Below are positions 14,894 to 30,109 of a DNA stretch of 64,000 bases, piece by piece; the first letter of the stretch is position 1, and each line of letters opens with the position of its first letter. The notes beneath the pieces are model-generated. The model saw only the letters and a program-made list of their open reading frames with translations. It made no database searches and was not told the origin of the DNA. Position numbers and translations under genes: made by a program. The DNA comes from Terriglobia bacterium (GTDB lineage Bacteria > Acidobacteriota > Terriglobia > 20CM-2-55-15): NCBI GenBank assembly GCA_963664115.2, contig CAXWPJ010000010.1, positions 352,001 to 416,000 on the forward strand, given 5' to 3'.

Positions 14894-15487
14894 TCAATGC
14901 TCGAGAAGCCTGCGGCCAACGGCGAGGTACTGGAAACCCGAGACAACGGTGAGCAGACCGGTCAGGATGAACAAAAAATATATCCCACTCTCCTCGACGC
15001 CGATCCAATTGTAGAGGAGCACGGCAAACACAGTCAGGAATTGAAACACTGTGTTGGCTTTCCCGACAAGCGTGGGTGGAAAAACGCGAAAGCCGTAAGT
15101 AATGATGAACGCCAATCCACCAAGCAGTATGAACACATCGCGAAAAATCACCAGTAGAAGAAGCCAGATCGGAATAGGGTTCGCAAACCCCATCTGGGGT
15201 AGTGACAGCACAACGATGGAGCTACTCATGAGCAACTTGTCAGCGATCGGATCCAGGATCGCGCCCAGGGATGTTTTCTGCCGAAAGTGACGTGCAATAA
15301 GCCCGTCCATCCCATCGGTCACCGCGGCCACGCAGAAGGTGATCAGCGCCCAGCCCAGCCGGTTATAAGCGAGGAGAATAATGAACACCGGGATAAAGAC
15401 GATCCTCAAGAGCGTCAACTGGTTGGCTATCGTTAGAATGTTCGGCCGGTACTTCTCAACGGTACGGTCGGAGAGTCTGGTGGACAC
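14894..15487 (-). CDS. pgsA: CDP-alcohol phosphatidyltransferase (PgsA-like)
   Basis: TIANQLTLLRI, TDGMDGLIARHFRQKTSLGAILDPIADKLL. Confidence 0.85.
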   Translation of the reverse strand: MSTRLSDRTVEKYRPNILTIANQLTLLRIVFIPVFIILLAYNRLGWALITFCVAAVTDGMDGLIARHFRQKTSLGAILDPIADKLLMSSSIVVLSLPQMGFANPIPIWLLLLVIFRDVFILLGGLAFIITYGFRVFPPTLVGKANTVFQFLTVFAVLLYNWIGVEESGIYFLFILTGLLTVVSGFQYLAVGRRLLEH

Positions 15488-15566
15488 GCTTTTTATCCTA
15501 AAATGAGGAAAGGACGCAATGACCTCGTCACTGCGTCCTTCAATTTTCGGCCGCTTACCGTGGAGC

Positions 15567-15995
15567 TTACTCCGCCGTCACGGGAACAACAACGTCCACG
15601 ATCTGGCGCGAGCAAAAACCGTCGGATTTGGAACAAAAGAAGTAAACGAGTTCGCCTGGAATCTCATACTCACCCGCCACGGCCGCTTCCACGGCAACAT
15701 TAAAAGCGGGCACGTCCACGTAATAATCGTCAGTCGATTTCGGATCTTCTGGAGGCGACTCCAGCTTGGCCGCATCGTGCGTCAACCCTTCAACAGGCTG
15801 CAGCTTCAACTGGATCGCCGGCACGCGGTTGATCACGTATCCGTCCAGGACGTCGAACGAGACGACAACCTCGCCGCCGGCGCCGGCTTCGATGGCATCG
15901 TCAGAATAGTTCGCTTCCATAACCTGCGGCAGTCCCCCTCCCAAAGTCAGGAGCTGGGAAAGAAGAAGGATGATTCCGAATCCAAAATTCACCAT
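15567..15995 (-). CDS. Secreted hypothetical protein, DsbD N-terminal-like fold
   Basis: Signal peptide; GELVYFFCSKSDGFC Cys pair resembling nDsbD. Confidence 0.55.
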   Translation of the reverse strand: MVNFGFGIILLLSQLLTLGGGLPQVMEANYSDDAIEAGAGGEVVVSFDVLDGYVINRVPAIQLKLQPVEGLTHDAAKLESPPEDPKSTDDYYVDVPAFNVAVEAAVAGEYEIPGELVYFFCSKSDGFCSRQIVDVVVPVTAE

Positions 15996-16072
15996 AATAG
16001 TCTCCTGCGATTGCCCGTACGGATGTATTCCTCACGACATCGAATGCGCTGGAAATCGTTCAGAATTATAAC

Positions 16073-17164
16073 ATGAGAATCATTTCCGTCGCGGGCGCCC
16101 GGCCCAACTTCATGAAGATCGCGCCCCTGGTCGCCGAGTGCAGCAGGGTCTCTGGAATCAACCACTTGCTGGTCCATACCGGGCAACACTACGACACACA
16201 GATGTCAGACGTATTCTTTCGGGATTTGTCCATTTCCTCACCCGATATCGATCTCGGTGTCGGATCGGCGTCCCACGCGGTTCAGACGGCCCGGATCATG
16301 ATGGAATTCGAAAAGGTCTGTACGCGGGAGCTCCCGGACCTCGTTATCGTCGTCGGTGACGTCAACTCGACGATGGCGGCAACCCTGGTAGCGGCCAAGC
16401 TCAACATACCGGTTGCGCACGTCGAAGCGGGCCTGCGCAGTTTCGATCGCGGGATGCCCGAGGAGATCAATCGCATCGTGACGGACCAGTTGGCGGACTA
16501 TCTGTTCACGACGAGCCGGGAGGCGGACGAGAACTTGAAGCGGGAAGGCGTGAACCCTGAGAAGATCCACTTCGTCGGAAACGTCATGATCGACACTCTT
16601 CTCAAGCACCGGGGGAAGGCCGATGGTCTCAACGTTGCCTCCGGGCTGGGAATCGACGGCACAGACTACGCTCTGATGACCCTGCACCGGCCGTCAAACG
16701 TAGACAACCCGGCCGTTCTTCAGGGAATTCTTACCGCCGTTCAGGACATCTCGACATCGCTCCCGGTGATCTTCCCCATTCATCCGCGTACATCGCAACG
16801 GATCCGGGAATTCGATCTCGACGCGATGGTCCACGGCAGCGTCCGTCTGACCGACCCCCTGGGATACCTTGAGTTTCTCAACTTGATGTCGGGAGCCCGC
16901 CTGGTCCTGACCGACTCAGGAGGCCTGCAGGAAGAAACGACGATTCTGGGCGTCCCGTGTCTGACGATCCGGCAAAACACCGAGCGCCCCGTGACAATCT
17001 CCGAAGGCACGAACGAACTGGTCGGGACGGATCCGGTCCGTATTCGGGAAGCTGCAGACAGGATTCTTGCCGGAAATTGGAAAACACCCCGCGTACCCGA
17101 ATACTGGGACGGCAAAGCGGCTGAACGGATTGTTGCGATACTCACCGCGAACGTTTCTGCCTGA
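16073..17164 (+). CDS. wecB: UDP-N-acetylglucosamine 2-epimerase (non-hydrolysing)
   Basis: GARPNFMK, HTGQHYD, VGDVNST, HVEAGLRS, MPEEINR, TDSGGLQEE. Confidence 0.95.
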   Translation: MRIISVAGARPNFMKIAPLVAECSRVSGINHLLVHTGQHYDTQMSDVFFRDLSISSPDIDLGVGSASHAVQTARIMMEFEKVCTRELPDLVIVVGDVNSTMAATLVAAKLNIPVAHVEAGLRSFDRGMPEEINRIVTDQLADYLFTTSREADENLKREGVNPEKIHFVGNVMIDTLLKHRGKADGLNVASGLGIDGTDYALMTLHRPSNVDNPAVLQGILTAVQDISTSLPVIFPIHPRTSQRIREFDLDAMVHGSVRLTDPLGYLEFLNLMSGARLVLTDSGGLQEETTILGVPCLTIRQNTERPVTISEGTNELVGTDPVRIREAADRILAGNWKTPRVPEYWDGKAAERIVAILTANVSA

Positions 17165-17195
17165 ACTGCACAACTGTCGAAGAGAAGCCGAAGAT

Positions 17196-17379
17196 TTCAC
17201 CGCAAAGGCGCAAAGACGCAAAGGAAGATGGGATGGTCTGTGTAGATTTCGTCTGATCGCAACTCTATGGGTTCTCAACGACGTTCTTGCTAACCCGAAT
17301 AACTCCAGTCGAGCGGGATGAAGGCAGGCTATCCCGTCCTGCTTTTTCTTCCTTTGCATCTTTGCGCCTTTGCGGTTAA
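17196..17379. mobile_element. CGCAAAG-arm inverted-repeat element, copy 6
   Basis: Same arms; the interior is closely similar to the reverse complement of the copy 5 interior. Confidence 0.85.
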
Positions 17380-17555
17380 TCCCCTCTTAATTCTTCCCTT
17401 AAATGTCTCGAAAGCCCGGAAAAAGTGGGTCGTTGACCCGGAGGTTATGGGTCAGACGCCCATTCAGTTTCAATAGTTTAGTGGAGGACCATGACATGCT
17501 CAGTCGTCGATGGGTCGGTGACGATGATTACTCTGTTAACTTCGAGTGGGATAAA

Positions 17556-18101
17556 ATGGCACATATGGATACCAAGGGGCCGGCGACGATCGACGATCTC
17601 TATAACGTTCCCGAAGACGGGCGTAAATACGAGCTGGTCGACGGAGAGATTCTGGTGAGCCCGGGTGGGTTCCGCCACGGCCAAGTCTCCGTCCAGATCG
17701 GCTACCTGATCAAACGATTCCTGGAAGGTTCACCGATCGGCGTTGTCTGCGGCGCGGACCTCGGCATTATCTTCCCCAACGGCAACTTGAGATCTCCGGA
17801 CGTAACTTTCGTTCGTAACGAAAAGGTCCCAGCCGGGGAGGCGGCTGAGCGATTTCTTGAGGCTGTGCCCGACCTCGTGGTCGAAGTACTTTCTCCGGGC
17901 GACCACATGCGGCATGTCGCAGACAAGATCGGTGAGTTCCTGGAATCCGGTGTGTGTCTGGTCTGGTTGGTCGACCCTCAGCCCGAAACCGTCACGGTGT
18001 ACCGCTCGTTGACCGATACCCGCCAACTCCGGGGCGACGACCTCATCGACGGAAACTCTGTCCTTCCAGGCTTCAAAGCGAAAGTCTCCGACTTCTTTTA
18101 G
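17556..18101 (+). CDS. Uma2 family (DUF820) PD-(D/E)XK endonuclease
   Basis: KYELVDGEI, RSPDVTFV, PDLVVEVLSPGD, LVWLVDP, VLPGF. Confidence 0.9.
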   Translation: MAHMDTKGPATIDDLYNVPEDGRKYELVDGEILVSPGGFRHGQVSVQIGYLIKRFLEGSPIGVVCGADLGIIFPNGNLRSPDVTFVRNEKVPAGEAAERFLEAVPDLVVEVLSPGDHMRHVADKIGEFLESGVCLVWLVDPQPETVTVYRSLTDTRQLRGDDLIDGNSVLPGFKAKVSDFF

Positions 18102-18142
18102 CTTCAGCTGAACTGCAGATTACTCAGACCGAAACAAAATCT

Positions 18143-18321
18143 TTCACCGCAAAGGCGCAAAGGAAGATGGGTTGGTCTGTGTGAATTGCGTCGGACTGAA
18201 CCTCTATGGGTTCTCAACAGCATTCTTGCTAACCCAGACAGCTCAAGTCGCGCAGAACGTAGGCAGTCTTTCCGTCTTTCTTTCATTTTCTTCCTTTGCG
18301 TCTTTGCGCCTTCGCGGTGAA
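18143..18321. mobile_element. CGCAAAG-arm inverted-repeat element, copy 7
   Basis: Same arms and interior orientation as copy 6; the flanks are also homologous. Confidence 0.85.
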
Positions 18322-18651
18322 TCCCCTCTCAGTTCTTCCTAAAGAAGTCTCGAAAGCTGCGCCTTTGCGGGTCGCGGTTTTAGCGGTCTTTCACTTCCCC
18401 TCTGTTTGATTTCAGTGCGTTAACAACGGACCTCTCCGTGCACTTCTAGTCAGCGTTCCGGTGGATGGCGGGCTTGGGGGCTCAATTAACCGAAGGGCCG
18501 GTGCCTCCGACGTGATTCGCCGGAACTCATTCTCCAAATTCCTCTCGGCGGTTAGAAGGCGAGGCTGTGTATTTACAAATGGAAAGGGCCGCAGTTTCGC
18601 GGGCCGCCGGGAGGAAACACATCCAACCACTATTACCTCAAAGGAGGTTTC

Positions 18652-18957
18652 ATGTTTCGAAAAGCATTTGCAGCGACGCTCCTCTTCACGTTCCTGTTCG
18701 CCATGGCCACGATCGCGCCCCAGAGCAGTGAAGCTCAGTCTGCGACCACCATGGTCATCGATATCAATTCGGCTCCCCTGGCTGCGCTCCAAGGCATCGT
18801 TCAGGACGAGGGTCTCGCCCAGCGGATCATCGAAAATCGGCCGTATGCCAACAAACGGCAGTTGCTTTCACGTCAACTCGTGTCGGCAGAGCAATACGAC
18901 GAGATCAAGGACAGGATCATTGCTCGACGGATCGAGGATTCGGAAGACTCCCGGTAG
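18652..18957 (+). CDS. Exported helix-hairpin-helix (ComEA-like) protein
   Basis: AGGAGG RBS, signal peptide, IDINSA..AALQGI...LAQRIIENRPYANKRQL...YDEIKDRIIA. Confidence 0.8.
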   Translation: MFRKAFAATLLFTFLFAMATIAPQSSEAQSATTMVIDINSAPLAALQGIVQDEGLAQRIIENRPYANKRQLLSRQLVSAEQYDEIKDRIIARRIEDSEDSR

Positions 18958-18964
18958 CGCGGCA

Positions 18965-19252
18965 ATGTACGCGCGCATGGTGATCGGCGAAGCAATCCAT
19001 GAAGATCAGGTTTCAGAGTTCGTTCGGATCTACGAGTCAGAAGTGCTTCCCAAGCTCCACGACGAACCGGGGTTCGAATCGGCGAACTTCATGGTCGAAG
19101 ATGGAGGCCGGATGGCGATTTCGCTCACGCTCTGGCAATCCCAGCAGGACTGCCTGAAATACCACTCCAGTATGGCTTACCGCCAGTTGGTGGAAAAAAC
19201 CCAGCATCTGTTGAAAGGCAGTTTCATCGTGCGGTTATTCCGTACCGTTTAG
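18965..19252 (+). CDS. ABM (antibiotic biosynthesis monooxygenase-like) dimeric alpha/beta barrel protein
   Basis: MYARMV...EVLPKLHDEPGF...ISLTLWQSQQDC..YHSS..Y. Confidence 0.7.
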   Translation: MYARMVIGEAIHEDQVSEFVRIYESEVLPKLHDEPGFESANFMVEDGGRMAISLTLWQSQQDCLKYHSSMAYRQLVEKTQHLLKGSFIVRLFRTV

Positions 19253-19285
19253 GCCCGAGACAGAAAGCGGGGGAGGCAAGAGACC

Positions 19286-19392
19286 TAACCGCAGAGACGC
19301 AAAGGCGCAAAGGAAGAGAGAAGAGTCAGTTTGTCTTTTCTGAAAATCATTTTTCTTTGTCTTCCTTTGCGCCTTTGCGTCTTTGCGGTTCA
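19286..19392. mobile_element. CGCAAAG-arm inverted-repeat element, copy 8 (short, no core)
   Basis: TAACCGCAGAGACGCAAAGGCGCAAAGGAAGA ... TCTTCCTTTGCGCCTTTGCGTCTTTGCGGTT. Confidence 0.8.
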
Positions 19393-19426
19393 AACTTCTT
19401 GCCTCTTCATATCCATGCCTCTGCGT

Positions 19427-20443
19427 TCATTCTTTTTCTTTTCTGCGGTAGGGCCTGAAATCGACGTTGCATCGGTGGCGCCGCAGGAAGTCCATGAATC
19501 GCTTGTAATCGGTGTCGGGCATATTAAAGAGTCGGACGACCTTTCTGTAGCTACCGTGGGTTTGAACCAGGCCACGCCGGATGACGGCCTCGACCTGTCG
19601 CTTGGTGATCAGACGGTCGGTGTAGGGCCGGGCGACCGATTCCCAGAAATCGTCGACGACGACTGCCTCGACAGGTTCCCGAACCAGGGCATCCGTGGGC
19701 AGCGTGATCGCATCCGGTGCAATAATTTCTGTCTCCGACATGTAGTAGCTGCTTTCAATGACGTTCTGCAGTTCGCGAATGTTTCCCGGGTAATGATAGG
19801 CAAGCAACTTTTCCATGGCATTGGGCGACAGAGTTCTCTCTTCTCCACTGTCGGCATTCAGCGATGCGACGATATGACGCACCAGAAGCGGGATGTCGGA
19901 CCGGCGCTTTCGAAGCGGGGGAACTTCAATCGCAAATACGTTGAGACGGTAGAGGAGGTCTTCGCGGAAATCACCCGAACGCGCCATCGACCGAAGGTCA
20001 CAGTTGGTGGCGGCGATTATGCGGGCGTCGATCGGGCGGTCGACAACGTCACCGAGTCGACGCACCTGCTTCTCCTGAAGCACGCGGAGAAACTTCACCT
20101 GGAATCGTTTGGAAGTATTCGCAATTTCATCCAGGAAGAGCGTTCCCTGGTTCGCTTGCTCAAAAAGTCCGGGTTTGTCGCCGATGGCCGTCGTAAAGGC
20201 GCCACGCCGGTAGCCGAACAGTTCGCTTTCGACCAGTTCTTCCGGAAGGGCACCGCAATCAATGGGCACGAACCGGCGCTGGCGGCGGCTGCACTGATCG
20301 TGAATAGCACGTGCGACCAATTCCTTTCCGGTACCGGTCTCTCCCTGGATCAGAACCGAACTCGAAGTTCTGGCAGCGGCTTGAATTTTTGAGTGCAGGA
20401 GTTCGACCGCATCACTTTGTCCAATCATTTTTGTTCGCATCAT
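19427..20443 (-). CDS. Sigma-54-dependent activator (bEBP) lacking an N-terminal sensor domain
   Basis: MIGQS, VLIQGETGTGKELVARAIH, ESELFGYRRGAFTTA, GTLFLDEI, FREDLLYRLNV, YPGNIREL. The upstream part of the 558-aa ORF is antisense to the ECF gene. Confidence 0.88.
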   Translation of the reverse strand: MMRTKMIGQSDAVELLHSKIQAAARTSSSVLIQGETGTGKELVARAIHDQCSRRQRRFVPIDCGALPEELVESELFGYRRGAFTTAIGDKPGLFEQANQGTLFLDEIANTSKRFQVKFLRVLQEKQVRRLGDVVDRPIDARIIAATNCDLRSMARSGDFREDLLYRLNVFAIEVPPLRKRRSDIPLLVRHIVASLNADSGEERTLSPNAMEKLLAYHYPGNIRELQNVIESSYYMSETEIIAPDAITLPTDALVREPVEAVVVDDFWESVARPYTDRLITKRQVEAVIRRGLVQTHGSYRKVVRLFNMPDTDYKRFMDFLRRHRCNVDFRPYRRKEKE

Positions 20444-20464
20444 GACACTACAGCCGGAGCAGAC

Positions 20465-20992
20465 ATGGAAAAGGTCACTCAAAAATTGGAGCAAGGCAGC
20501 CCGGAGGTTCTCGAAGAGCTCGGTCGCGCAATCCGAAAGATCCATGGCACGCGCGATCCGGATCTCGAGCAGGAAGTCTTTCTCAGAACGCTCAAGGCGT
20601 TTCGGAAGGAAAGAAGGGTCGAGCATCCGCGGGCACTCATATGGAAGATCGCCAAAGACACGGTCGCTGACCATTGGAGGCTCAGGGCGCGGGACCGTTG
20701 GGACCCCCTGGACGAACTCCAGCACCCGGCCGCCCAGGACACGGATGCCGAACGCGACCTCGATCGAAAACGTCGTGTCGAACAATTGCGAAACGGGATC
20801 CTGCGACTTGGATGCGACATCCGGGGATCGGTCTACCTGTTTTACATGGAAGGCTATTCGGTTTCCTCGATCGCGCGGATTTATGGAAAGACGCCCTCCG
20901 CGGTCAAGATGGCCCTCTACCGGGGACGGCGGCAATTGGTGCGAATGTTTCGATCGGACGCGACTAACAAGTCGGGCTTCGAGCGACTTTGA
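20465..20992 (+). CDS. ECF-type RNA polymerase sigma factor
   Basis: Region 2 DLEQEVFLRTLK...LIWKIAKDTVADHWR; region 4 LFYMEGYSVSSIARIYGKTPSAVKMALYRGRRQL. Confidence 0.85.
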   Translation: MEKVTQKLEQGSPEVLEELGRAIRKIHGTRDPDLEQEVFLRTLKAFRKERRVEHPRALIWKIAKDTVADHWRLRARDRWDPLDELQHPAAQDTDAERDLDRKRRVEQLRNGILRLGCDIRGSVYLFYMEGYSVSSIARIYGKTPSAVKMALYRGRRQLVRMFRSDATNKSGFERL

Positions 20993-21102
20993 GGCCCGCC
21001 AGAGCCGTAACTCATTGATCTCAAGACGGACTAAGAATGGAACCCCACGTGAAACAGTCTGAGTCGGGCACACGGTCCGCGATCTGGGAGGATCAACACA
21101 CA

Positions 21103-21285
21103 ATGAATCGACAAATTGTAACGCTCAGCAGCACAGAGCTCATGGGAACAGTCGGCGGTGACTGGAATTGGCACGATTTCTTTGCGGGGGCCACCTGGGG
21201 TTTAGGCGCAGGCTGCGGGATCAGCGGTCACCCCGTTCTGTGTATGGGCGCCCTGTTTACTGGCGGCATAACGATGTTCTTCTAG
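21103..21285 (+). CDS. Bacteriocin-like precursor peptide A (double-glycine leader)
   Basis: GGAGG RBS; leader MNRQIVTLSSTELMGTVGG, then 41-aa hydrophobic core DWNWHDFFAGATWGLGAGCGISGHPVLCMGALFTGGITMFF. Confidence 0.85.
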   Translation: MNRQIVTLSSTELMGTVGGDWNWHDFFAGATWGLGAGCGISGHPVLCMGALFTGGITMFF

Positions 21286-21297
21286 GAGGAATGAACA

Positions 21298-21483
21298 ATG
21301 ACATCACACGTCCAAGACATTTCCGCATTGGAACTCCAGCAAATTGGTGGAGGTGACTGGTTTGAAACCACCTGGGGAATCCTGCTCGGCACGGGATTCG
21401 CTGCCGGCTTCCTCGGTTCGGGTGGACTGCTGACGATTGCAGGAATCGCCGGATTTGGCCTGATCTTCGGTCCCCCGTTCTAA
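21298..21483 (+). CDS. Bacteriocin-like precursor peptide B (double-glycine leader)
   Basis: AGGAGG RBS; leader MTSHVQDISALELQQIGGG, then 42-aa core DWFETTWGILLGTGFAAGFLGSGGLLTIAGIAGFGLIFGPPF. Confidence 0.85.
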   Translation: MTSHVQDISALELQQIGGGDWFETTWGILLGTGFAAGFLGSGGLLTIAGIAGFGLIFGPPF

Positions 21484-21505
21484 GCATTCAACCTCTTCAA
21501 CCCTT

Positions 21506-21529
21506 AGGTGCGCTCGAATGGGCGCACCT
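21506..21529 (+). terminator. Stem-loop after the precursor genes (no U-tract; attenuator or RNA stabiliser)
   Basis: AGGTGCGCTC-GAAT-GGGCGCACCT, 10-bp stem with one G-U pair. Confidence 0.5.
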
Positions 21530-21576
21530 CGCATTCCACCTGGACCTGCGTGCCATGCGCGCACAAAACTAAATCA

Positions 21577-22317
21577 ATGGACGTCTTTCAACTCGAACAA
21601 GCCGTCAAAAAGCGCAGCGACGATTTTGTCCTGGGACCGCTCGACCTTCATCTCTCAGCGGGGGAAATCCTCGGTGTCATGGGCCCTAACGGTGCGGGCA
21701 AAACCACCCTCCTGCGATTGTTGTGGGGCTTTCTGCGTCCGGACGCCGGGCGCGTGTCTGTGTTCGGCAGAACACCCCATCTGGAACAGGTCTGGATTCG
21801 TCTACGGGCGGGCTACCTTCCCGAGTCGTTGAAGTTCTATGACTGGATGACGGTGGATCGATTCCTTGCGTTCATGGCCGGTTTCTATCCGTCCTGGGAC
21901 TGGGGCCATGCCCTTGAACTCCTGGAGCAGTTCGGAATAACTCCCGCCCGGACTATCGGGACCTTATCCAAAGGAAATCGGGTGAAGCTGGGCCTTCTGG
22001 CAGCGGTGGCCCATCGGCCAAAGCTACTGATCCTGGACGAACCGACCTCGGGTCTGGACCCCTTGATACGAATCGACATCCTCCATTTCCTCCGATGCTC
22101 CGCACAAGAAGACGGCACGGGAATCGTCCTGTCCTCTCATGTGTCCGACGATCTGGACCGGATTGCCGATTCCGTTCTGATGCTGAACGACGGCAAGGTA
22201 TTGGAGTATGCGCCGACTAAGGTTCTGCTCGACAAAACCAACGAAACTCAACTGGAGGCTGTGTTTTTGAATGCGGTCGGTAGGATTCCCACATCTCGCG
22301 TTCCACATCGCGCGTAA
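21577..22317 (+). CDS. ABC-2 type transporter ATP-binding protein (putative immunity)
   Basis: GPNGAGKTT, LSKGNRVKL, LLILDEPTSGLDP, LSSH. Confidence 0.88.
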   Translation: MDVFQLEQAVKKRSDDFVLGPLDLHLSAGEILGVMGPNGAGKTTLLRLLWGFLRPDAGRVSVFGRTPHLEQVWIRLRAGYLPESLKFYDWMTVDRFLAFMAGFYPSWDWGHALELLEQFGITPARTIGTLSKGNRVKLGLLAAVAHRPKLLILDEPTSGLDPLIRIDILHFLRCSAQEDGTGIVLSSHVSDDLDRIADSVLMLNDGKVLEYAPTKVLLDKTNETQLEAVFLNAVGRIPTSRVPHRA

Positions 22318-22906
22318 AGACTGGGCCGAAGCGCGTCATGTCGTGATCGCGCTGACCCTGGGTCTTATGGTTCCCGCCCTGCTCGTCCGCTTCGCTCCGG
22401 GCCGTTCGGACGACTTCGCAAAAGGTCTGCTGGCCGGCTTGCTCGCAGGTGCCGGTTTCGGCTACGCCCAGTTCTGTTTCCTGAACGAACGCCAGCGAGG
22501 CACACTGGAGTTTCTGCTCAGCCTTCCCATTGAGCCCCGACAGCTTGTCCTCGCCAAATTCGTCTCCCTGTACTCAATGGTCCTTTTCACCGTAAATGTC
22601 CCTGGCCTGCTCGTCCCAGACCTTCGGCTCGTCTACATCACCAACGCCGCAGCCCTTTCACTAGCAACCGTCTTCATGGCCACAACGGTCATCTCAGACA
22701 AGCCCTGGGCCTCGCAAATACCCATCTGGTTCCTTCTCGTCTTCATCCTCCCCATCCAACGCCTCCTCGAACGCTACTACCCCAACGGACTGCAGCTCTT
22801 CGAAACCCTCACCGCCAACCCCATTCTGTTAGCGACATTCGCCTTGCTCGTCAGCCCGCTCGTTGTCGCTGTATCCGTTTCGATTTTTCACCGCAAAGGC
22901 GCAAAG
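22271..22906 (+). CDS. ABC-2 type permease (putative immunity); no own stop, reads in frame into the GxxExxY gene
   Basis: About 6 TM segments; ERQRGTLEFLLSLPIEPRQLVLAKF motif. Confidence 0.8.
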
Positions 22907-23393
22907 GTGAATGAGAACCCTTTGTCACGGAAGGTCATTGGGGCCGTAATTGAAGTGCACCGCATCTTAGGCCCGGGCCTACTAGAGTCGATTTATCAAG
23001 ACTGCCTCGACATTGAGTTCCGGCTTCGAAGAATCAGGTTCGAAAGGGAAAAGAGAATCCCTCTCATCTACAAAGACCAAGATCTGAGAGAGCGCCTTCG
23101 TATCGACTTTCTCGTCGCAGATGAAGTCGTAATCGAAACCAAATCCGTTCACTCGTTACTGCCCGTACATGACGCGCAAGTGCTCACGTACCTAAAGTTG
23201 ACCGGCTGCAAATTAGGTCTGCTGATCAACTTCAACGTCCCAGTAGCAAGAGACGGAATCAAACGCATCGTAAACCGCCTCTAGCCCCCCCCCTTTTCGT
23301 TTGCATCGACGCCCCCTTTGTTTCCCATTCGGATTCCCCCTCCCCCATATAGAATCGTCTTTCTTCTTTGCGTCTTCGCGCCTTTGCGGTGAA
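22887..23393 (+). mobile_element. CGCAAAG-arm element, copy 9, enclosing a GxxExxY nuclease gene
   Basis: Left arm TTCACCGCAAAGGCGCAAAGG abuts the GTG start; right arm CTTTGCGTCTTCGCGCCTTTGCGGTGAA. Confidence 0.8.
22907..23284 (+). CDS. GxxExxY protein (PD-(D/E)XK nuclease fold)
   Basis: VIGAVIEVHRILGPGLLESIYQDCL, RIDFLVADEVVIETKSV, HDAQVLTYLKLTGCKLGLLINFNV, GIKRIVN. Confidence 0.92.
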   Translation: MNENPLSRKVIGAVIEVHRILGPGLLESIYQDCLDIEFRLRRIRFEREKRIPLIYKDQDLRERLRIDFLVADEVVIETKSVHSLLPVHDAQVLTYLKLTGCKLGLLINFNVPVARDGIKRIVNRL

Positions 23394-23543
23394 CCTCTTC
23401 ATGTCTTCGCCTTGAAGCTCTAAATTCCCCGCTTTATCTCCCCGTACCCACACAAACAAATCGCCGATCAAGCGTCTTTCCCATTCTTGGTCCTATGGTG
23501 TGAGCCGTTTAGCTATGGCCCCCCAACTGCCCTTTCTCCCACT

Positions 23544-25618
23544 GTGGCATACACCATCATTCACCAGCATGACGCCAATGACTGTGGCCCCGCGTGTCTG
23601 GCGATGGTGGCGGCGCATTATGGAAAACGTCAGTCCATTGCTCGACTCAGAGAAAAATCTGGAACCGACCGCCAGGGCACAAACCTCGCAGGGCTAATAC
23701 AGGCGGCCCAGGAAGTGGGCTTCGAGGCCCGTGGCGTCCGCGCCACCCCGGAAGGCCTCACCGAGGTCACGCTCCCCGCCATCGCCACTGGTCCGAAGAC
23801 GGGCGGAACCACTTCGTCGTCCTGTTCAAACAAAGCTCGCGGCGCATTACGATCGGCGACCCCGCCCTTGGTGTACGCAAGCTCACACCCGAAGAATTCG
23901 CTGCGCACTGGACCGGGATACTCGTACTTCTGAAACCCACCCTCAACTTGCGGGATCTATCCACGCCCTCGCTTTCGAAACTGTGGTCCCTGGTTGGCCA
24001 CCATCGAAAGCTCTTCCTGGATGCACTGCTCGCGGCAGTCCTCATGACGATCCTCGGCCTCGCCTCAGCCTTCTTCATCCAAGTCCTCGTCGACTTCGTG
24101 TTCCTTGTTGGAGCCGAACCCACCTTAAACTGGCTCGGCCTGGGCATGCTGCTCGTGCTGGGTGCGCGTGTCGCGTTCCACGGCCTCCGAGCCTATCTCC
24201 TCGCCCACCTCAGCCACCGGATCGATGCGGACATTGTGTTGGGATACCACCATCATGTCCTGGGACTGCCGCTTGATTTCTTCTGGACCCGCCGGACCGG
24301 CGAGATCCTCTCCCGCTTGTCTGATGCGATGAAGATCCGCCTGGCGATCAGCGGGACTGGCCTTGCCGTCATCGTCGACGGCATCACCTTGATTCTGACC
24401 GCCACCATCATGTGCATCCTTCATTGGAAACTGGCCATCGCTTCTCTCGCTCTTTTGCCAGTGCTCGTCGTTGTCCTCTATGGTTTGACGGGGCCTATGA
24501 AACGCGCCCAGCGGACGGCCATGGAGCGGGCCGCACACTTCGAGTCGCACACCGTAGAAGCCGTCAGCGCCATCGATACGGTCAAGGCGTTTCGGGCCGA
24601 AGACCGCATGCGGCTTCGCGGCGAAGTCCGCTTTGGTGAGTTGATCGACGCCACGTTCCGGGCCGAGATCTTTGCCTTGCACGCCTCCACCTTAACAACG
24701 TTTCTGACCGGACTGGCAAGCCTGACGCTGCTGTGGGTCGGCGGGCGCGAAGTCCTCGCCGGTGGTCTGAGCGTCGGTCAGCTCATGGCACTCTTCACGA
24801 TGTTGGGAACCGTTATTGGCCCCGTCGAACGACTGGCCAATGCGAATCAATCCATACAGGACGCATTGGTCGCTGGAGAACGCCTTGGGGAAATTTTTGA
24901 AATAGAGCCCGAAGAAAATCGGGAACCTCAGGAAAGATCGATGAAGGTCGCACGTTCCATTGAAGGTGCCATCGAATTTCAGAACGTGACATTTGGCTAT
25001 GGAAACCGGCCGCCCGTCATCAAAGATCAGAGCTTCCGCATTGACCCCGGCGAATGTTGCCGCATCGTAGGCGCAAGCGGTAGCGGCAAGACAACGCTTG
25101 CCCGGGCGCTGGGACGGTTTCTGAAACCCCACAGTGGGCGTGTCTTAATTGATGCCATCGATGTCAACGATTACACCCTGGAGAGTCTGCGCCGCCAGGT
25201 GGGCTATGTCTCCCAGGACGGGCACATACTGAGTGTCTCCATCGCCGACAACATTCGCCTGGGCCGGGCGGACGCTTCCCCTACAGAAGTCCGCCTGGCC
25301 GCGACCCAGGCCGGAGCCGCCGCATTTATCGAACACCTACCCCTGGGCTACAACTCGCTGGTCGGCGAGCGCGGCACTACCCTATCGGGTGGGGAACGGC
25401 AGCGCTTGCTCCTGGCACGGGCCATTCTTGTCAACCCGCCCATACTGGTTCTTGATGAACCGACCAATCACCTCGACCGGGCATCGACACAGGCAGTCCG
25501 GGAACTGATCGATCAGCGCAAACGCGACCACCGCACAACGATCATAATCTCCCACGACGAACTGCCCGCCCACAGAACGATTGCCATCGACAGCAACACT
25601 TATGCGCTGGCGAACTGA
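23544..25618 (+). pseudogene. Peptidase-containing ABC transporter (C39 PCAT), split by a 1-bp frameshift at ~23786
   Basis: HQHDANDCGPACLAMV (C39 catalytic Cys) in one frame; HWSEDGRNHFVVL, TMD, GASGSGKTT, LSGGERQR, LVLDEPT in another. Adding one C to GCCAC restores LPAIAHW. Confidence 0.88.
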
Positions 25619-26771
25619 GCTTAACCTCGGCGGAAAGCCCCGCCTGGTGGGCGCGACGGTCTACGTCCTTGCCACTCTCCTGGCCATTGCACTCACATGG
25701 AGTTATTTCACTGAAGTGGACGTCGTCGTCCGTGCACCCGGCCTGGTCCGGCCCGATGGCGAAGTCGTTCGAATCACCTCCGAGGTCGCCGGAACCATCG
25801 AGGCCGTCCACGTTGAGGAGGGCGACGCAGTTCACACAGGTGACATCGTCGTCCGGTTGGACAACCAGCAGATCCGTTTGGAACGCGAAACGATAGAACA
25901 CCAAATCGCTCTCGCCGGGGAACAACTCCGGGACCTCGATCGCAGGATCGCGACCACGGCCAGAATCCACGTTCTGGAACTGGAAAAGCTCGACACGGAA
26001 ATCCGCTCAGCCCGTCAAGTCCTGGAACAAGGACACAGGGAACACGCGGCTCAAATGGAATCAGCCTCGCTTCGGCTGGAACAGACACGCCAGGAACACT
26101 TGAGGAACCAGCAATTGTTCGCGGAAGGACTCATCTCCCGGCAAACTTCGGATCGCTTCCGGAACGATTTCAATCTGGCCGAGGCCCAGCACCTGGAAAT
26201 CCTCTATCGGAAACCCACTGACGCATCCTTGCAATCGTTGCTGGAAACGAAAAATTTGATCGATGCGGAACTTGAATCACTCCAACAGGACCTTCGGATG
26301 GAATCCGTGCCGATCGAGGCCCAACGGACCGAACTCCGGTCACGACAACAGCAAGTCGATCAGGAAGCGGAGCGCCGCTTCATTCGCAGCCCGTCTACGG
26401 GCCAGATTACCCTGCTGCCCACAGTACATCCGGGAGAACATATTGCCGCCGGCACTCTGATCGCAACGCTGGCCCCGACACCGGTCCGTCCCATCGTCGA
26501 GGCCTGGGTCCCAAACGCCAAGGCCACGGACCTTCGGCCCGGCCATCCCGCCCGTCTCCGTCTTGACGATTCGGAAACCATAGACGGCATCGTCTTCGCC
26601 GTCAGCCCGGACGTGCGGTTTACCGAGTCCGCGAACGGCGCCTTCCAGGTCCTGATCGCCCCCGACACGCTGGGCCTCCGCCTCGGCCTGGCCGTCGACG
26701 TCCGCCTCATTACACGCCAGGAGCGAGTCCTGACCTTGCTGTTCAACAGAATCGAAAGGGCGTTTGACTAA
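25602..26771 (+). CDS. HlyD family membrane fusion protein
   Basis: N-terminal TM, VDVVVRAPGLVRP, GTIEAVHVEEGDAVHTGD, long coiled coil, IRSPSTGQI. Confidence 0.88.
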   Translation: MRWRTELNLGGKPRLVGATVYVLATLLAIALTWSYFTEVDVVVRAPGLVRPDGEVVRITSEVAGTIEAVHVEEGDAVHTGDIVVRLDNQQIRLERETIEHQIALAGEQLRDLDRRIATTARIHVLELEKLDTEIRSARQVLEQGHREHAAQMESASLRLEQTRQEHLRNQQLFAEGLISRQTSDRFRNDFNLAEAQHLEILYRKPTDASLQSLLETKNLIDAELESLQQDLRMESVPIEAQRTELRSRQQQVDQEAERRFIRSPSTGQITLLPTVHPGEHIAAGTLIATLAPTPVRPIVEAWVPNAKATDLRPGHPARLRLDDSETIDGIVFAVSPDVRFTESANGAFQVLIAPDTLGLRLGLAVDVRLITRQERVLTLLFNRIERAFD

Positions 26772-26875
26772 CTAGTAATTCATACTCGGAAAGCTAACAC
26801 TGGCCTCCAACTGGCCCACATGACAATGCCCGACCCTTGACTCGACTTCTGGCCTACGCACAACGGGTGTACTAG

Positions 26876-28724
26876 ACCCAAAACAAGCGCATAACCAGTC
26901 CGCCGAGGCCCAGTTCGCGCCGATAGAATTCGAGGCATAGAATCCCGTTCCCGGATGGCCTGTTCCAGGTATCGAGTTTCTGTTGAATCTGTTTCAGTTC
27001 AGCCTCGCTGGTGTTGGACGGTTGACAGAAACCGGGACCTCGATCGCCCGGGCTCAGAGTCATGATCGGGTCAACATCGCAGAGGCTGACGCAACACATC
27101 CACCCCGCGGAACAAGACCGGCAACCACCGGTTCCAGGCCAGGATCCGGAACAGAATGCGCCGCCCGGTGCGCACGAGTTGGCACGGCACAAGCATGAAA
27201 GCGTTCAAGAAGGTTTTGAACTCCATGCGCAGCACGGTTTGCTTCTCAGCCTGATATTTTTGGCCCCAACGTCCGGTTTCGGGAAGCAGCAATGCAAACC
27301 ACGCTTTCAGTGTCCAGGCCAGTGACGCGATCACCATGTAGGCCCAGTTGCTGGTCTGATCTCCGACCGGCATCCGCAACGCCTGAACGCCGTTCTTCAA
27401 CTGCTCAATGAGATTCTCCTGATTGCACCGTTGATTGGCACGCATCACAATCTGGTCGGCCGGATCCGAACGGTTGGTAATGTAGAAGAAGTACCGGATG
27501 TCGTCAAACAACACCTGCTCTCCTTTGGCCACCGACAGATTCTTCCGCACCACGACGACACGGTAGTCCCGATCGCAGGCTCCGGGTCGATACCGAAACT
27601 CGGCCACATCCTCACCCTGCAAGCGGATATTGTCGAAACCGCGCTGCCGAACGATCTCTTCCTTCACGTTGTCGGGACGTTGGCGCGGTTCGGTCGCCAC
27701 GTCGTATTTCGCGGGCCGTTCCAGGCGCTTCCACTGGCGCGGCTCCAGTTCATCGGCCCGGGCCTTCAGGTTCGCCATCGCGTCAATCCCGAATATGAAA
27801 CCCACCTGCTGGTCGTCCCATCCGTCCAGATGCCGGGTCTGGCTGAAGTCCGTGTCCCCGCGCAGCAGGATCTGGCGAAACCCCGCATGCCGGCACAATG
27901 CGATGGCTTGGTCGAACCGGACCGCGGCTCCTTCATGCGACGGCCGGTTGCCGCTACGATTGACCAGATACAGCGGTTCGGCGGTGTTGGCCAGCGAGAT
28001 CATCAGCGGGTGATATCCCCACGTCCCGTCGTAGGCCACGTCCATCCCTTGCTTGCATTCCCCCGTGGTTTCGGCCAGTGTCCCGTCCGCGTCCAACACC
28101 GCTTCTTCGAAAAACGCCGCCGGTTGCTGTCGCCAGACTCCGAGCCGGACTTGATTGGTTGCCTCCATCAGACACTCCACGTCGTCGGCCTCGAATCTCC
28201 GGCAGAAGTCTCCCGCCGTCGTCGGATCCGGAATCCGTTGCGCTCCCAGCGCATCCAGATACACCGCATCGTTGCGCCGCAGTTCGATGTCTTCCAGGCA
28301 CGTTCCTCCGCTCAAGGCGTTGTAGGCGATGTTCAGCACGTGATCCGACTCGTGATACGGCAGGTGCCGCTTCAACACATGCACGCCCTTGTCGATGGCT
28401 TCGATCAGCCCGGTCCGCCGCGCCACCAGTTGCATCGTCCCGATACCACCAACCGATGTGCCCCGCGTCCGCTCTCCCATCTCGTACTGAATGTTGCTCG
28501 CCGAAAACATCGGCTCTACCTGATCCGTCCAATGCCGGTCCCCAAGCCGACGTTCGATTCGCCGCTTGCGGTTCCTCATGTTCTTGCGCGTATAATCGTT
28601 CATCTGAAATGCCTCCTTTTCCGAAGAATCTGTTCAAGGTTTTTTTCGCACGGAGACGGGGCATTTCGGGTACTTCCGCTCTTATTGCACTATCATTTCC
28701 TCGTCAATCACGCTTGTTCAGGGA
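26876..28724 (-). mobile_element. IS1380 family insertion sequence
   Basis: Imperfect TIRs ACCCAAAACAAGCG / TCCCTGAACAAGCG; CTAG on both sides (26872-26875, 28725-28728). Confidence 0.8.
27071..28603 (-). CDS. IS1380 family DDE transposase
   Basis: PDPTTAGDFCRRF, VLDADGT, GYHPL, LLRGDTDF, RCNQENLIEQLKNG, NWAYMVIASLAWTL. Confidence 0.9.
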   Translation of the reverse strand: MNDYTRKNMRNRKRRIERRLGDRHWTDQVEPMFSASNIQYEMGERTRGTSVGGIGTMQLVARRTGLIEAIDKGVHVLKRHLPYHESDHVLNIAYNALSGGTCLEDIELRRNDAVYLDALGAQRIPDPTTAGDFCRRFEADDVECLMEATNQVRLGVWRQQPAAFFEEAVLDADGTLAETTGECKQGMDVAYDGTWGYHPLMISLANTAEPLYLVNRSGNRPSHEGAAVRFDQAIALCRHAGFRQILLRGDTDFSQTRHLDGWDDQQVGFIFGIDAMANLKARADELEPRQWKRLERPAKYDVATEPRQRPDNVKEEIVRQRGFDNIRLQGEDVAEFRYRPGACDRDYRVVVVRKNLSVAKGEQVLFDDIRYFFYITNRSDPADQIVMRANQRCNQENLIEQLKNGVQALRMPVGDQTSNWAYMVIASLAWTLKAWFALLLPETGRWGQKYQAEKQTVLRMEFKTFLNAFMLVPCQLVRTGRRILFRILAWNRWLPVLFRGVDVLRQPLRC

Positions 28725-28783
28725 CTAGGGCGGAGTTTTCCGCTTACAGACTACTAAGAGGTTCTGCTTCGAGGAGGTGGGTC

Positions 28784-29359: not shown

Positions 29360-29446
29360 TTTTGTGTTCAAAATAGGTTACCGGCACACAATGCATTCGC
29401 GAAAACCCCGCTTGTAGCCCGTCAAATCATTTCGTACAGAATCAGC

Positions 29447-29565
29447 TGAAACTCTAAGAGACACTTTCCTGATCGGAGGATCGAATGAACGAAAAAGTGT
29501 CTGCAGAAGATTGAGTGAGTGAGATTCGTCGAAAGACTCGAATGAAGTACTCGTCCGAGGAGAAG
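29447..29565 (+). mobile_element. IS3 family left-end / orfA remnant
   Basis: TG-starting end, GGAGG RBS, then MNEKVSAED*VSEIRRKTRMKYSSEEK resembling an IS3 OrfA N-terminus. Confidence 0.6.
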
Positions 29566-29693
29566 GGGACCTGTCAAGTCACTTCGTGAAGTTCTCGCTG
29601 CCCTCTACCAGCGCTAGAGTCAATCGACATTGTCCCAGCTCGGAACTACTGATATCGGACACTGCCAAAACGGACGGGATTGGCTTTGCTGCG

Positions 29694-29888
29694 TTACGCG
29701 CCCTTTGGTTCGGGGATCTCAAGATTCCGACAGATCTTGCGAACGAGGAAGTCGTTGATCTCGCGATGCCGGGGCACCGTAGACACCTTGCTCCGCGAGC
29801 GGTTCACATAGACCGAGTGATTTCCATCTTCGCGAAGCAATTCGCAACTATGTTGTTTCAAATGTCGGACGACGTCGCGGCGTTTCAC
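29694..29888 (-). CDS. hicA: HicA family toxin
   Basis: MKRRDVVRHL...LLREDGNHSVYVN...TVPRHREI; ATGA-coupled to hicB. Confidence 0.88.
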   Translation of the reverse strand: MKRRDVVRHLKQHSCELLREDGNHSVYVNRSRSKVSTVPRHREINDFLVRKICRNLEIPEPKGA

Positions 29889-30109
29889 TCAGACACGAGT
29901 TCGAAGGGTTCCCGGATGACGAGACGATTTTCGAGGCTCTCTTCGGCAAGTACGCGGTTCGTTTCAAGCACCAACTCTACGGCCTCCTGGAGATTTGATC
30001 GAACCTCTCGAAGAGTGGCCCCTTGCGTATTTGCACCGGGCAGTTCCTCAACGAACCCGATATAGCCCTCGGGCACTTTTTCGAAGATCGCCGTCAGTTT
30101 CAGAGTCAT
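29885..30109 (-). CDS. hicB: HicB family antitoxin (short)
   Basis: EGYIGFVEELPGANTQGATLREVRSNLQEAVELVLE. Confidence 0.88.
   Translation of the reverse strand: MTLKLTAIFEKVPEGYIGFVEELPGANTQGATLREVRSNLQEAVELVLETNRVLAEESLENRLVIREPFELVSE

What the first reader, a model, noticed from the sequence alone, without database searches (positions are those of the whole stretch)
19427..26771. Two-peptide double-glycine bacteriocin-like cluster in a probable Acidobacterium
Seen: two tandem precursors with 19-aa LS/IS..EL....GG leaders. Both cores begin Asp-Trp and are hydrophobic and Gly-rich with GxxxG motifs; core A has two Cys. Neither core contains Lys or Arg, so they are anionic, unlike typical cationic class II bacteriocins. 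Downstream are an ABC-2 pair, a C39 PCAT and HlyD, with no modifying enzyme. Known: C39 PCATs cleave after GG leaders and export with HlyD/TolC in diderms; class IIb bacteriocins use two GxxxG peptides. Inference: a new class IIb-like or microcin-like pair from an under-explored phylum.
Basis: partly seen in the sequence, partly recalled or inferred. Interest (0 to 1): 0.8.

Follow-up and report, generated by a model that had tools for sequence, protein, structure and literature searches.

The report
Acidobacterial two-peptide bacteriocin, regulators, new RNA
An Acidobacteriota bacterium carries two small, greasy, negatively charged peptide genes with export genes, likely an antibacterial pair of a known general kind although this strain's exporter gene is frameshifted, and beside them lie family-wide regulators and a predicted structured RNA that matches no Rfam family.

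Summary
The peptides are real: two tandem double-glycine precursors with anionic, hydrophobic 41-42 aa cores, then ABC-2 pair, C39 transporter and HlyD, no modifying enzyme. The host is a Terriglobia (Acidobacteriota) seen in sponge metagenomes. The pair occurs in 10 of 35 family genomes, a single peptide in 6. Cores are swapped between close relatives (core A 63% DNA identity, flanks 95-98%) while the ABC pair is not. Best reading: a class II bacteriocin/microcin pair working like Caulobacter CdzCD, with likely ABC-type immunity; killing, synergy and cleavage are untested. It meets no curated family cut-off. The newer part is the wiring: conserved promoters suggest ECF sigma -> receiver-less sigma54 activator -> peptide operon, plus a second sigma54-like promoter ahead of a covarying two-hairpin RNA (29 of 35 family genomes, no Rfam match). 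The scan noted a different sigma54-linked double-glycine locus elsewhere (e1-8362721, unchecked). New variant of a known kind.

The parts
18427..18443 (+). Second sigma54-like -24/-12 site (YGG-N9-TGC), ahead of the RNA-HhH-ABM unit
   Evidence: Present 135-182 nt before the same RNA motif in 27 of 27 loci examined; 10 of 11 consensus matches in G022 and G049, 6 of 11 here; consensus recalled; function inferred
18441..18625 (+). Predicted two-hairpin structured RNA with an invariant GGGCC in both loops; no Rfam family
   Evidence: z -4.95; 13 of 28 pairs with two-sided changes, 95.6% of cells paired, 0 of 500 shuffles; 29 of 35 family genomes; no Rfam match
18652..18957 (+). Small protein with hydrophobic N-terminus and weak helix-hairpin-helix (HHH_3) match
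   Evidence: PF12836 E 9e-5, below cut-off; syntenic in relatives
18965..19252 (+). ABM-domain small protein
   Evidence: PF03992 E 5e-6; 29 of 35 family genomes, the same 29 that hold the RNA
19427..20443 (-). Receiver-less sigma54 activator (AAA+ domain starts at the N-terminus; GAFTTA loop)
   Evidence: PF00158 E 1e-64 from the first residues scanned; GAFTTA in 16 of 18 orthologues read, never GAFTGA
20448..20478 (-). ECF-type promoter-like motif GTGACC-N15/16-CGGCT, 4-5 nt before the activator's ATG (predicted leaderless transcript)
   Evidence: 26 of 30 loci by pattern, visible variants in the other 4; resembles ECF41 TGTCACA-n16-CGTC (PMC3426412)
20465..20992 (+). ECF sigma factor, no adjacent anti-sigma gene seen
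   Evidence: Sigma70_r2 and r4_2; TIGR02937 over cut-off; 30 of 35 family genomes
20960..20989 (+). Conserved palindromic element 75-79 nt before the -24 site (candidate activator-binding site; overlaps the 3' end of the ECF gene)
   Evidence: same spacing in 12 of 14 loci by the automatic anchor
21038..21052 (+). Sigma54-like -24/-12 site ahead of the peptide operon
   Evidence: TGG-N9-T 59-75 nt before the first precursor in 16 of 16 loci; 10 of 11 consensus matches in G006 and G016, 7 of 11 here
21103..21285 (+). Precursor A: 19-aa GG leader plus 41-aa core, predicted helical hairpin with two Cys flanking the turn
   Evidence: pLDDT 85.6, helices 23-41 and 44-59
21298..21483 (+). Precursor B: 19-aa GG leader plus 42-aa core, predicted single long helix
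   Evidence: pLDDT 77.2, helix 20-57
21577..22317 (+). ABC ATPase (candidate immunity transporter subunit)
   Evidence: PF00005; best NCBIfam hit PmtA, far below cut-off
22271..23284 (+). ABC-2 permease (about 210 aa) fused in frame to a GxxExxY nuclease domain (22910-23284)
   Evidence: separate ORFs in the relatives read; permease in 16 of 35 family genomes
22887..23393 (.). Inverted CGCAAAG-type repeat arms (22887-22906 and 23374-23393) flanking the GxxExxY gene
   Evidence: 60 exact copies of the 17-mer in the genome
23487..25618 (+). C39 peptidase-containing ABC transporter (likely start GTG 23544), one base short at 23784-23787, which separates the QxxxxDC cysteine from the NHFVV histidine and GDP aspartate
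   Evidence: allele survey; catalytic roles of the residues recalled from the C39 family
25581..26771 (+). HlyD-type periplasmic adaptor
   Evidence: PF13437 over cut-off, TIGR01843 E 2e-30
26871..28728 (-). IS1380 element marking the right border (not part of the system)
   Evidence: NF033539 over cut-off; 73 full-length copies in the genome

Best explanation
The locus encodes two double-glycine precursors that, in strains with an in-frame C39 transporter, are likely cut after GG and exported through PCAT-HlyD-TolC, and whose hydrophobic cores likely act together as a membrane-damaging class II bacteriocin against related bacteria, while the ABC-2 pair likely protects the producer and this strain, with its frameshifted transporter, is likely a non-producer. 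Shown: the genes, their order, their conservation across four genera, the allele exchange of the cores, the frameshift polymorphism, TolC-family genes and rpoN in the genome. Inferred: cleavage, export, killing, synergy, immunity. Also inferred from conserved motifs: the ECF sigma factor transcribes the receiver-less activator as a leaderless mRNA, and the activator turns on a sigma54 promoter ahead of the peptides, so production is switched at the level of activator synthesis.
For: Gene set matches class II bacteriocin/microcin loci (PMC2850506 passages; PMC12219008 passages). At least 4 TolC-family genes (11 OEP matches) and one rpoN. A and B are the only such precursors in the genome. Weak PF10439 hits in 4 of 10 A and 4 of 12 B-type orthologues; A profile finds 32 proteins that grade into generic GG peptides, 6 of 25 scanned hitting PF10439 below cut-off; Atlas neighbours of B are Blp class II bacteriocins (0.92, 158 shared features, lead only). 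Predicted membrane-type helices. Allele exchange: G017/G007 activator 98%, leader A 96%, core A 63%, core B 83% DNA identity; G006/G016 96/96/64/76%; both cores change together in these two pairs and both stay 89-98% alike in G048/G047 and G021/G013. G006 holds decayed downstream cassettes, one with a G016-type A allele. Peptides and permease travel together: 15 of 16 permease-bearing genomes have a precursor, 15 of 16 precursor-bearing genomes have the permease, the 16th ending at a contig edge. Second ABC transporters give self-protection in other bacteriocin loci (PMC8538875 passages).
Against: No activity, expression or cleavage data. No member reaches a curated bacteriocin family cut-off. 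No small dedicated immunity gene is seen, and the permease stays 94-95% identical while cores are exchanged, unlike allele-matched toxin-immunity pairs. Six family genomes have one peptide only, two with 19-20 aa cores, and one metagenome contig has B without A. Only 1 of 10 two-peptide genomes (G004 C18) shows all six cargo genes uninterrupted in the stretches fetched; G006 and G016 have no HlyD match. The activator lacks the canonical GAFTGA loop and the window's -12 element reads GA instead of GC. dN/dS of cores stays below 1 in all 7 pairs, so there is no direct sign of positive selection.
Confidence: 0.48

Rival explanations
1. A and B are two independent class IIa-type microcins, products of an old tandem duplication, each active alone.
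For: Single-peptide loci in 6 family genomes of 3 genera; B without A on contig L063; A and B profiles align (hhalign 96.4%, E 1e-9, mostly leader and first core residues); core A keeps a Cys pair in 9 of 11 loci as disulfide microcins do.
Against: All 10 two-peptide genomes keep one A-type and one B-type gene in fixed order, and both cores change together in the two exchanged pairs.
Confidence: 0.17
2. The peptides are signals (pheromones) sensed by kin, with the ABC-2 pair as sensor or importer feeding back on the ECF/sigma54 circuit.
For: No receiver domain on the activator and no anti-sigma gene nearby, so the input is unexplained; 19-20 aa cores in G046 and G045 are pheromone-sized; single orthologues hit BlpC and ComC models, below cut-off and through the leader; allele exchange also fits pherotypes.
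Against: 41-42 aa cores with 19-residue hydropathy up to 1.8 suit membranes better than diffusion; no histidine kinase in the locus; the regulators persist in about 13 genomes that lost the peptides; the putative sensor does not change with the cores.
Confidence: 0.13
3. The peptides are surface or matrix amyloid proteins that build biofilm, like cyanobacterial EbfG1-4 or the biofilm role of Acinetobacter MccAB1.
For: GG-leader proteins exported by a C39 transporter build biofilm in Synechococcus (PMC4997328 abstract) and Acinetobacter (PMC13188072 passages); glycine zippers aggregate in CdzC (PMC5380434); the locus sits next to a UDP-GlcNAc 2-epimerase-like gene (recognised by eye).
Against: Models are helical with good confidence; core exchange between close kin is not expected of a plain structural protein; a matrix role and killing can coexist.
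Confidence: 0.12
4. The cargo is a decaying relic with no present function in this lineage; only the regulators and the RNA unit still matter.
For: Broken or missing export genes in 9 of 10 two-peptide genomes and in most other family members; 73 IS1380 copies point to relaxed genome maintenance.
Against: In-frame transporter allele in 6 of 8 runs; cores under purifying selection (0 amino-acid changes against 4 and 2 silent ones in G021/G013); no variant listed inside either peptide gene in the 8 runs; some breaks in long-read assemblies may be errors.
Confidence: 0.1

Closest known systems
Caulobacter crescentus Cdz system (CdzCD, CdzAB, CdzI; PMC5380434)
   Same: Diderm host, two adjacent small hydrophobic GG-leader proteins with glycine zippers, type I exporter plus adaptor in the locus, TolC elsewhere, no modifying enzyme.
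   Different: Shorter precursors (60-61 aa against 84-86), no polar C-terminal tail in this strain, Cys pair in A, ABC-2 pair instead of a three-helix CdzI, ECF/sigma54 regulators. No sequence comparison with CdzC/D could be made; no Acidobacteria named in the main text or in 4 supplements held.
Class IIb two-peptide bacteriocins of lactic acid bacteria (lactococcin G, plantaricin EF/JK; Blp and lactobin A/cerein 7B types, PF10439, TIGR03949)
   Same: Two neighbouring GG precursors with GxxxG motifs, dedicated cleaving ABC transporter and accessory protein.
   Different: Gram-negative host, net negative cores, no small immunity gene next to the precursors, no peptide-pheromone two-component system, scores below family cut-offs.
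Class IIa microcins (MccV, MccL, MccN) and bacteroidetocins (PMC12219008)
   Same: GG leader, PCAT plus membrane-fusion protein plus TolC, unmodified, under 10 kDa, possible disulfide.
   Different: Two different co-inherited peptides; ABC-2 pair; no Gly/Ser-rich siderophore-accepting tail, so not microcin class IIb; phylum not covered in the passages read.
EbfG1-4/PteB of Synechococcus elongatus (PMC4997328) and MccAB1 of Acinetobacter baumannii (PMC13188072)
   Same: GG-motif small proteins exported by a C39 transporter.
   Different: Those build biofilm; nothing here shows a matrix role.
ECF41-type promoters (PMC3426412) and receiver-less sigma54 activators such as PspF (PspF recalled)
   Same: Bipartite motif with about 16-nt spacer (GTGACC/CGGCT against TGTCACA/CGTC); AAA+ activator without sensor domain.
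   Different: The sigma factor is 175 aa with no long C-terminal extension, so not ECF41; its predicted target is a sigma54 activator; the activator has GAFTTA and a C-terminal domain type common in Acidobacteriota (64 of 401 genomes).

Membership tests
Class IIb two-peptide bacteriocin | Two adjacent genes for different precursors with 15-30 aa double-glycine leaders | tested here: met
   leaders 17-20 aa in 11 loci
Class IIb two-peptide bacteriocin | GxxxG or GxxxG-like motif in helical cores | tested here: met
   3 GxxxG in each window core; 0-4 in orthologues, all with small-xxx-small motifs; helices predicted
Class IIb two-peptide bacteriocin | Dedicated cleaving ABC transporter and accessory protein | tested here: inconclusive
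   Present, but frameshifted in this strain; in frame in 6 of 8 runs and in G004 C18
Class IIb two-peptide bacteriocin | Dedicated immunity gene in the precursor operon | tested here: inconclusive
   No small membrane-protein gene between B and the ABC ATPase (93-nt gap); an ABC-2 pair stands in that place; its role is untested
Class IIb two-peptide bacteriocin | Both peptides needed in about equal amounts for activity | not testable with these tools
PF10439 / TIGR03949 (Bacteriocin_IIc, lactobin A/cerein 7B) | Score over the curated cut-off | tested here: not met
   No hit for window A or B; homologues at most 24.1 bits against 27.1; for the alignment members only E-values were shown (best 3e-5)
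Cdz-like contact-dependent bacteriocin | 60-151 residues, leader ending G[G/A/S], glycine zipper | tested here: met
   60 and 61 aa; core A G10-G14-G18 zipper; criteria from PMC5380434 passage
Cdz-like contact-dependent bacteriocin | [quoted passage not shown] | tested here: not met
   Window cores end in hydrophobic residues; some B orthologues have acidic ends
Cdz-like contact-dependent bacteriocin | Small three-helix immunity protein; surface retention and contact-dependent killing | not testable with these tools
   No CdzI-sized gene seen; retention needs experiments
Class IIa microcin | GG leader, PCAT, membrane-fusion protein, TolC, no modifying enzymes | tested here: met
   (with the frameshift caveat)
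Class IIa microcin | Antibacterial activity of a single peptide, blocked by an adjacent membrane immunity protein of up to 216 aa | not testable with these tools
   The 210-215 aa permease fits the size (criterion from PMC12219008) but is an ABC-2 permease
Class IIb (siderophore) microcin | Gly/Ser-rich C-terminus and siderophore-attaching genes | tested here: not met
   Core ends and gene content
Known Rfam RNA family (for 18441-18625) | Match at gathering score | tested here: not met
   best E 0.34 in permissive mode
Competence-coupled bacteriocin locus (ComEA/ComEC type) | ComEA over cut-off in the locus and ComEC in the genome | tested here: not met
   HhH gene below cut-off while 4 other loci pass; no PF03772 match in this 97%-complete genome

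The most novel reading that the evidence does not exclude
The peptide cluster is the exchangeable cargo of an undescribed, family-wide three-tier switch: an ECF sigma factor makes a leaderless, sensor-less sigma54 activator, which fires two sigma54 promoters, one for an anionic two-peptide weapon whose cores are swapped as alleles under a single generalist ABC immunity pump, the other for a new two-hairpin regulatory RNA that feeds back on the switch; producers and transporter-null cheaters coexist in natural populations.
Probability: 0.22. Interest if true: 0.8.

Novelty: new variant of a known kind. Interest (0 to 1): 0.55.

Why it matters
If the pair kills, it would extend unmodified two-peptide bacteriocins to Acidobacteriota, for which my searches found no described example, and give a ready panel of natural alleles to ask how anionic peptides attack diderm membranes and whether one ABC pump can protect against many alleles. 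The allele survey makes a producer/non-producer polymorphism in an uncultured, sponge-associated bacterium directly testable. Independently of the peptides, the conserved ECF -> activator -> sigma54 motifs and the covarying RNA are concrete, cheap-to-test predictions about gene control in a family known here only from metagenome assemblies. The bacteriocin part alone is an expected member of a very widespread class.

Tried and rejected
Assembly error as the sole cause of the transporter frameshift: my first reading (two copies in the assembly with different indels), dropped after searches showed the short allele in contigs of two studies; a platform-specific homopolymer error is not excluded because library types are not on record. 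True duplication of the cluster: C9:1-14285 is 99.9% identical but starts at a contig edge and ends at an IS1380 copy, so more likely a second haplotype or misjoin; not counted as a paralogue. My notebook calls the His at the break catalytic; by recalled C39 motifs it is the conserved AHW histidine, not the catalytic one. Competence coupling: rejected. Positive selection on cores: not shown. A wider regulon for the upstream element in this genome: no second strong site (55 against at most 19; the matrix includes the site itself). Single-sequence search with A found only itself. Fold search of model A: no match at E <= 0.001; PDB sequence searches: nothing under E 0.2. Complex prediction of A with B was not available, so there is no verdict. 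No RNA holder listed, which says nothing on expression. The C-terminal domain of the activator is not a marker of this system. Two weak metagenome hits (L067, L068) showed no neighbouring genes of the system and were dropped (2 of 6). Paper searches for a sigma54-controlled double-glycine bacteriocin and for the RNA showed nothing matching in their listings; most subscription papers are outside the library.

Full report
OBSERVATION. A (21103-21285) and B (21298-21483) have 19-aa leaders ending GG and cores of 41 and 42 aa that begin Asp-Trp, lack Lys/Arg, carry two acidic residues, three GxxxG each, and in A two Cys. A leader-plus-hydrophobic-core pattern finds only these two genes (in two assembly copies) in 4.9 Mb and nothing in the reversed genome. 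Downstream lie an ABC ATPase, an ABC-2 permease, a C39 transporter and HlyD, and no modifying enzyme was hit among 13 ORFs scanned. Three things were missed: the transporter is split over two frames at 23784-23787; the permease runs in frame into a GxxExxY nuclease domain flanked by CGCAAAG-type inverted repeats, whereas the relatives read keep two ORFs; and the left end holds a receiver-less sigma54 activator facing away from an ECF sigma factor.

HOST. Records with the orthologous permease are titled Terriglobia or Acidobacteria gp5 (8 loci). Two runs labelled sponge metagenome (one study, low depth) hold 151-244 nt pieces with 0-1 mismatches across the locus, one covering most of B. The genome has rpoN and at least four TolC-family genes.

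IS THE EXPORTER BROKEN? The assembly has a second 14.3-kb copy on C9, 99.9% identical, starting at the contig edge and ending at one of 73 IS1380 copies; it is in frame at the break but changes the conserved AHW histidine and has its own indels, and is best read as a second haplotype or misjoin. Of 8 public runs laid (of 22 listed; 5 studies), the window's short allele is in X3 and X6 (long contigs without gaps, depth 3.1 and 10.2) and X1 (mixed), and an in-frame allele is in X1, X2, X8, X9, X17 and X18. One holder may be the window's source and library types are unknown, but the short allele is in two studies and whole samples differ, so a natural null allele is more likely than an error. The break separates the catalytic Cys from the His and Asp (roles recalled).

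DISTRIBUTION. In 35 family genomes: ECF 30, ABM gene 29, permease 16, B-type profile 13 plus 3 short precursors found by eye. The permease profile found 0 of 400 other Acidobacteriota genomes at E <= 1e-10, with at most 7 candidates scored per genome. Gene order is conserved. Ten genomes of four genera have the A+B pair; six have a single peptide, two with 19-20 aa cores. Four of 6 metagenome loci show the same neighbourhood, one with B alone. Of 22 cores in two-peptide loci, 19 have no Lys/Arg and all are net acidic; 9 of 11 A cores keep both Cys. The cargo decays often: only G004 C18 among the ten shows all six genes uninterrupted in the stretches fetched, G006 and G016 lack a HlyD match, and about 13 genomes keep the regulators without peptides; single-base breaks in these assemblies may partly be errors, and G004 C2 and G021 C15 look like contigs of other family members, so G004 C2 was not counted as a further genome.

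EVOLUTION OF THE CORES. In two of four within-genus close pairs the cores are exchanged inside near-identical flanks: G017/G007 activator 98%, leader A 96%, core A 63%, core B 83%, permease 95%; G006/G016 96, 96, 64, 76, 94%. Silent divergence in core A is about ten times that of the activator, which points to recombination of old alleles rather than fast point change; dN/dS is below 1 throughout. The other two pairs keep both cores (89-98%). G006 and G016 carry decayed downstream copies of the ECF-end/peptide/permease block, one in G006 with a G016-type A allele. This is what conflict or kin-recognition genes do. The permease does not change with the cores, so if it gives immunity it is a generalist.

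RELATIVES OF THE PEPTIDES. B has 37 database relatives, a tight family. The A profile finds 32 representatives that grade into generic GG peptides. PF10439 is hit weakly by 4 of 10 A, 4 of 12 B-type and 6 of 25 further sequences, never shown over the cut-off, and not by the window's own peptides. The Atlas puts B beside Blp class II bacteriocins (0.92) and the permease beside generic ABC-2 permeases. AlphaFold2 gives A a helical hairpin with the Cys pair flanking the turn and B one long helix; no solved structure matches. Whether A and B bind each other is open.

REGULATION (inferred from conserved DNA). (1) Before the activator's ATG, GTGACC-N15/16-CGGCT ends 4-5 nt short of the start in 26 of 30 loci, with visible variants in the rest; it resembles the ECF41 promoter TGTCACA-n16-CGTC (PMC3426412, passages) and occurs once per locus copy in this genome. 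(2) A TGG-N9-T(G) site lies 59-75 nt before the first precursor in 16 of 16 loci, matching the recalled sigma54 consensus at 6-10 of 11 positions, with a palindromic element 75-79 nt upstream and an AT-rich stretch between. (3) A second such site precedes the HhH-ABM unit in 27 of 27 loci. Together they suggest ECF -> activator -> sigma54, which would explain an activator without a sensor domain. Against: GAFTTA replaces GAFTGA in 16 of 18 orthologues read, the window's -12 is non-canonical, the palindrome overlaps coding sequence, and the loci are kin, so counts are not independent.

THE RNA. Between site (3) and the HhH gene lies a 170-185 nt element that folds into two long hairpins, each loop holding an invariant GGGCC. 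Window z -4.95; 23 of 24 sequences z < -2; 13 of 28 pairs change on both sides, 95.6% of cells pair, 0 of 500 shuffles reach this, slid controls pair 37-53% (the structure came from these sequences, which favours it). Spacing between motifs varies in all three frames, so it is not coding. No Rfam match. A model built from 24 of the sequences finds it in 29 of 35 family genomes, exactly those with the ABM gene, once per locus, and in 1 of 150 other Acidobacteriota genomes at a marginal E 6e-4. It follows the regulators, not the peptides. Whether it is transcribed, and whether it is a leader, an sRNA or a DNA-level hairpin, is unknown.

MECHANISM AND RIVALS. Best: a membrane-damaging class II pair, exported by PCAT-HlyD-TolC, with ABC-type self-protection, this strain being a likely non-producer (0.48). 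Rivals: two independent microcins (0.17), signal peptides (0.13), matrix amyloid (0.12), relic (0.10). Killing in some form totals about 0.65.

COMPARISON. It works most like CdzCD of Caulobacter (PMC5380434: abstract, passages, first part of Discussion, search of 4 supplements), meeting its size, leader and zipper criteria but not the polar tail or the small immunity gene. It fits the genetic definition of class IIb (PMC2850506, passages) except for the immunity gene and untested synergy; ABC-based self-protection is known from other bacteriocins (PMC8538875, passages). Class II microcins are widespread in diderms (PMC12219008, passages; its supplements not read). Biofilm roles of GG proteins: PMC4997328 (abstract and start of introduction), PMC13188072 (passages). 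Listings showed no acidobacterial example, no sigma54-driven GG bacteriocin and no such RNA; these were seen as listings only.

VERDICT. Observation partly confirmed, interpretation partly supported. Not filed as a member of Cdz, PF10439 or microcin IIb. New variant of a known kind; interest 0.55, carried by the allele exchange under an unchanged ABC pair, the transporter-null polymorphism, the predicted regulatory cascade and the unclassified RNA.

Noticed in passing
window 18441-18625: Family-wide two-hairpin RNA-like element without Rfam match; both loops carry the self-complementary GGCC, so loop-loop pairing or twin protein-binding sites are possible (untested); several loci have a third short 5' hairpin, also with GGCC.
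   Followed up: yes
window 17190-17380, 18143-18321, 19287-19390, 22887-23393: CGCAAAG-type inverted-repeat elements between genes, 60 exact 17-mers in the genome; one pair flanks the GxxExxY gene, whose sequence turns over fast (58.5% DNA identity where flanks are 94-97%). Looks like a repeat-associated mobile nuclease.
   Followed up: partly
window 26871-28728 and genome: IS1380 with 73 full-length, about 99.8% identical copies: a recent burst.
   Followed up: partly
G000:C9:1-14285: Second near-identical copy of window 14445-28728 at a contig edge; likely another haplotype or a join at IS1380.
   Followed up: partly
L033:6571-6675 (G046) and L034 about 7657-7768 (G045): Very short precursors with 19-20 aa cores that still begin Asp-Trp; one has two Cys, the other one Cys five residues from the end; pheromone-like in size.
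   Followed up: partly
L030:8950-15550 (G006) and L031:8890-10080 (G016): Arrays of decayed ECF-end/peptide/permease cassettes with alternative peptide alleles, like orphan modules of polymorphic toxin loci.
   Followed up: partly
window 24089-24292: A 204-nt alternative contig with 18-19 differences inside the transporter gene in 4 of 8 runs (X2, X3, X8, X9): a recombined patch or a related strain.
   Followed up: no
window 19430-19720: The activator's C-terminal domain has no Pfam hit yet occurs in 64 of 401 Acidobacteriota genomes, often at the end of 1000-2000 aa open frames.
   Followed up: partly
window 54601-56241: Group II intron domains (RF01999 once, RF00029 twice).
   Followed up: no
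window 29410-29566: A repeat of about 160 nt with many diverged copies across contigs, next to two small ORFs at 29694-30109 that look like a HicA/HicB pair (recognised by eye).
   Followed up: no
L034 about 3345-3762 (G045): A shortened 138-aa HlyD-like ORF follows an intact transporter; G006 and G016 have the transporter but no HlyD match.
   Followed up: no
L022 (G021:C15) and L027 (G047:C5); L019 (G004:C2) and L021 (G007): Identical or near-identical hits suggest contigs shared between bins.
   Followed up: no
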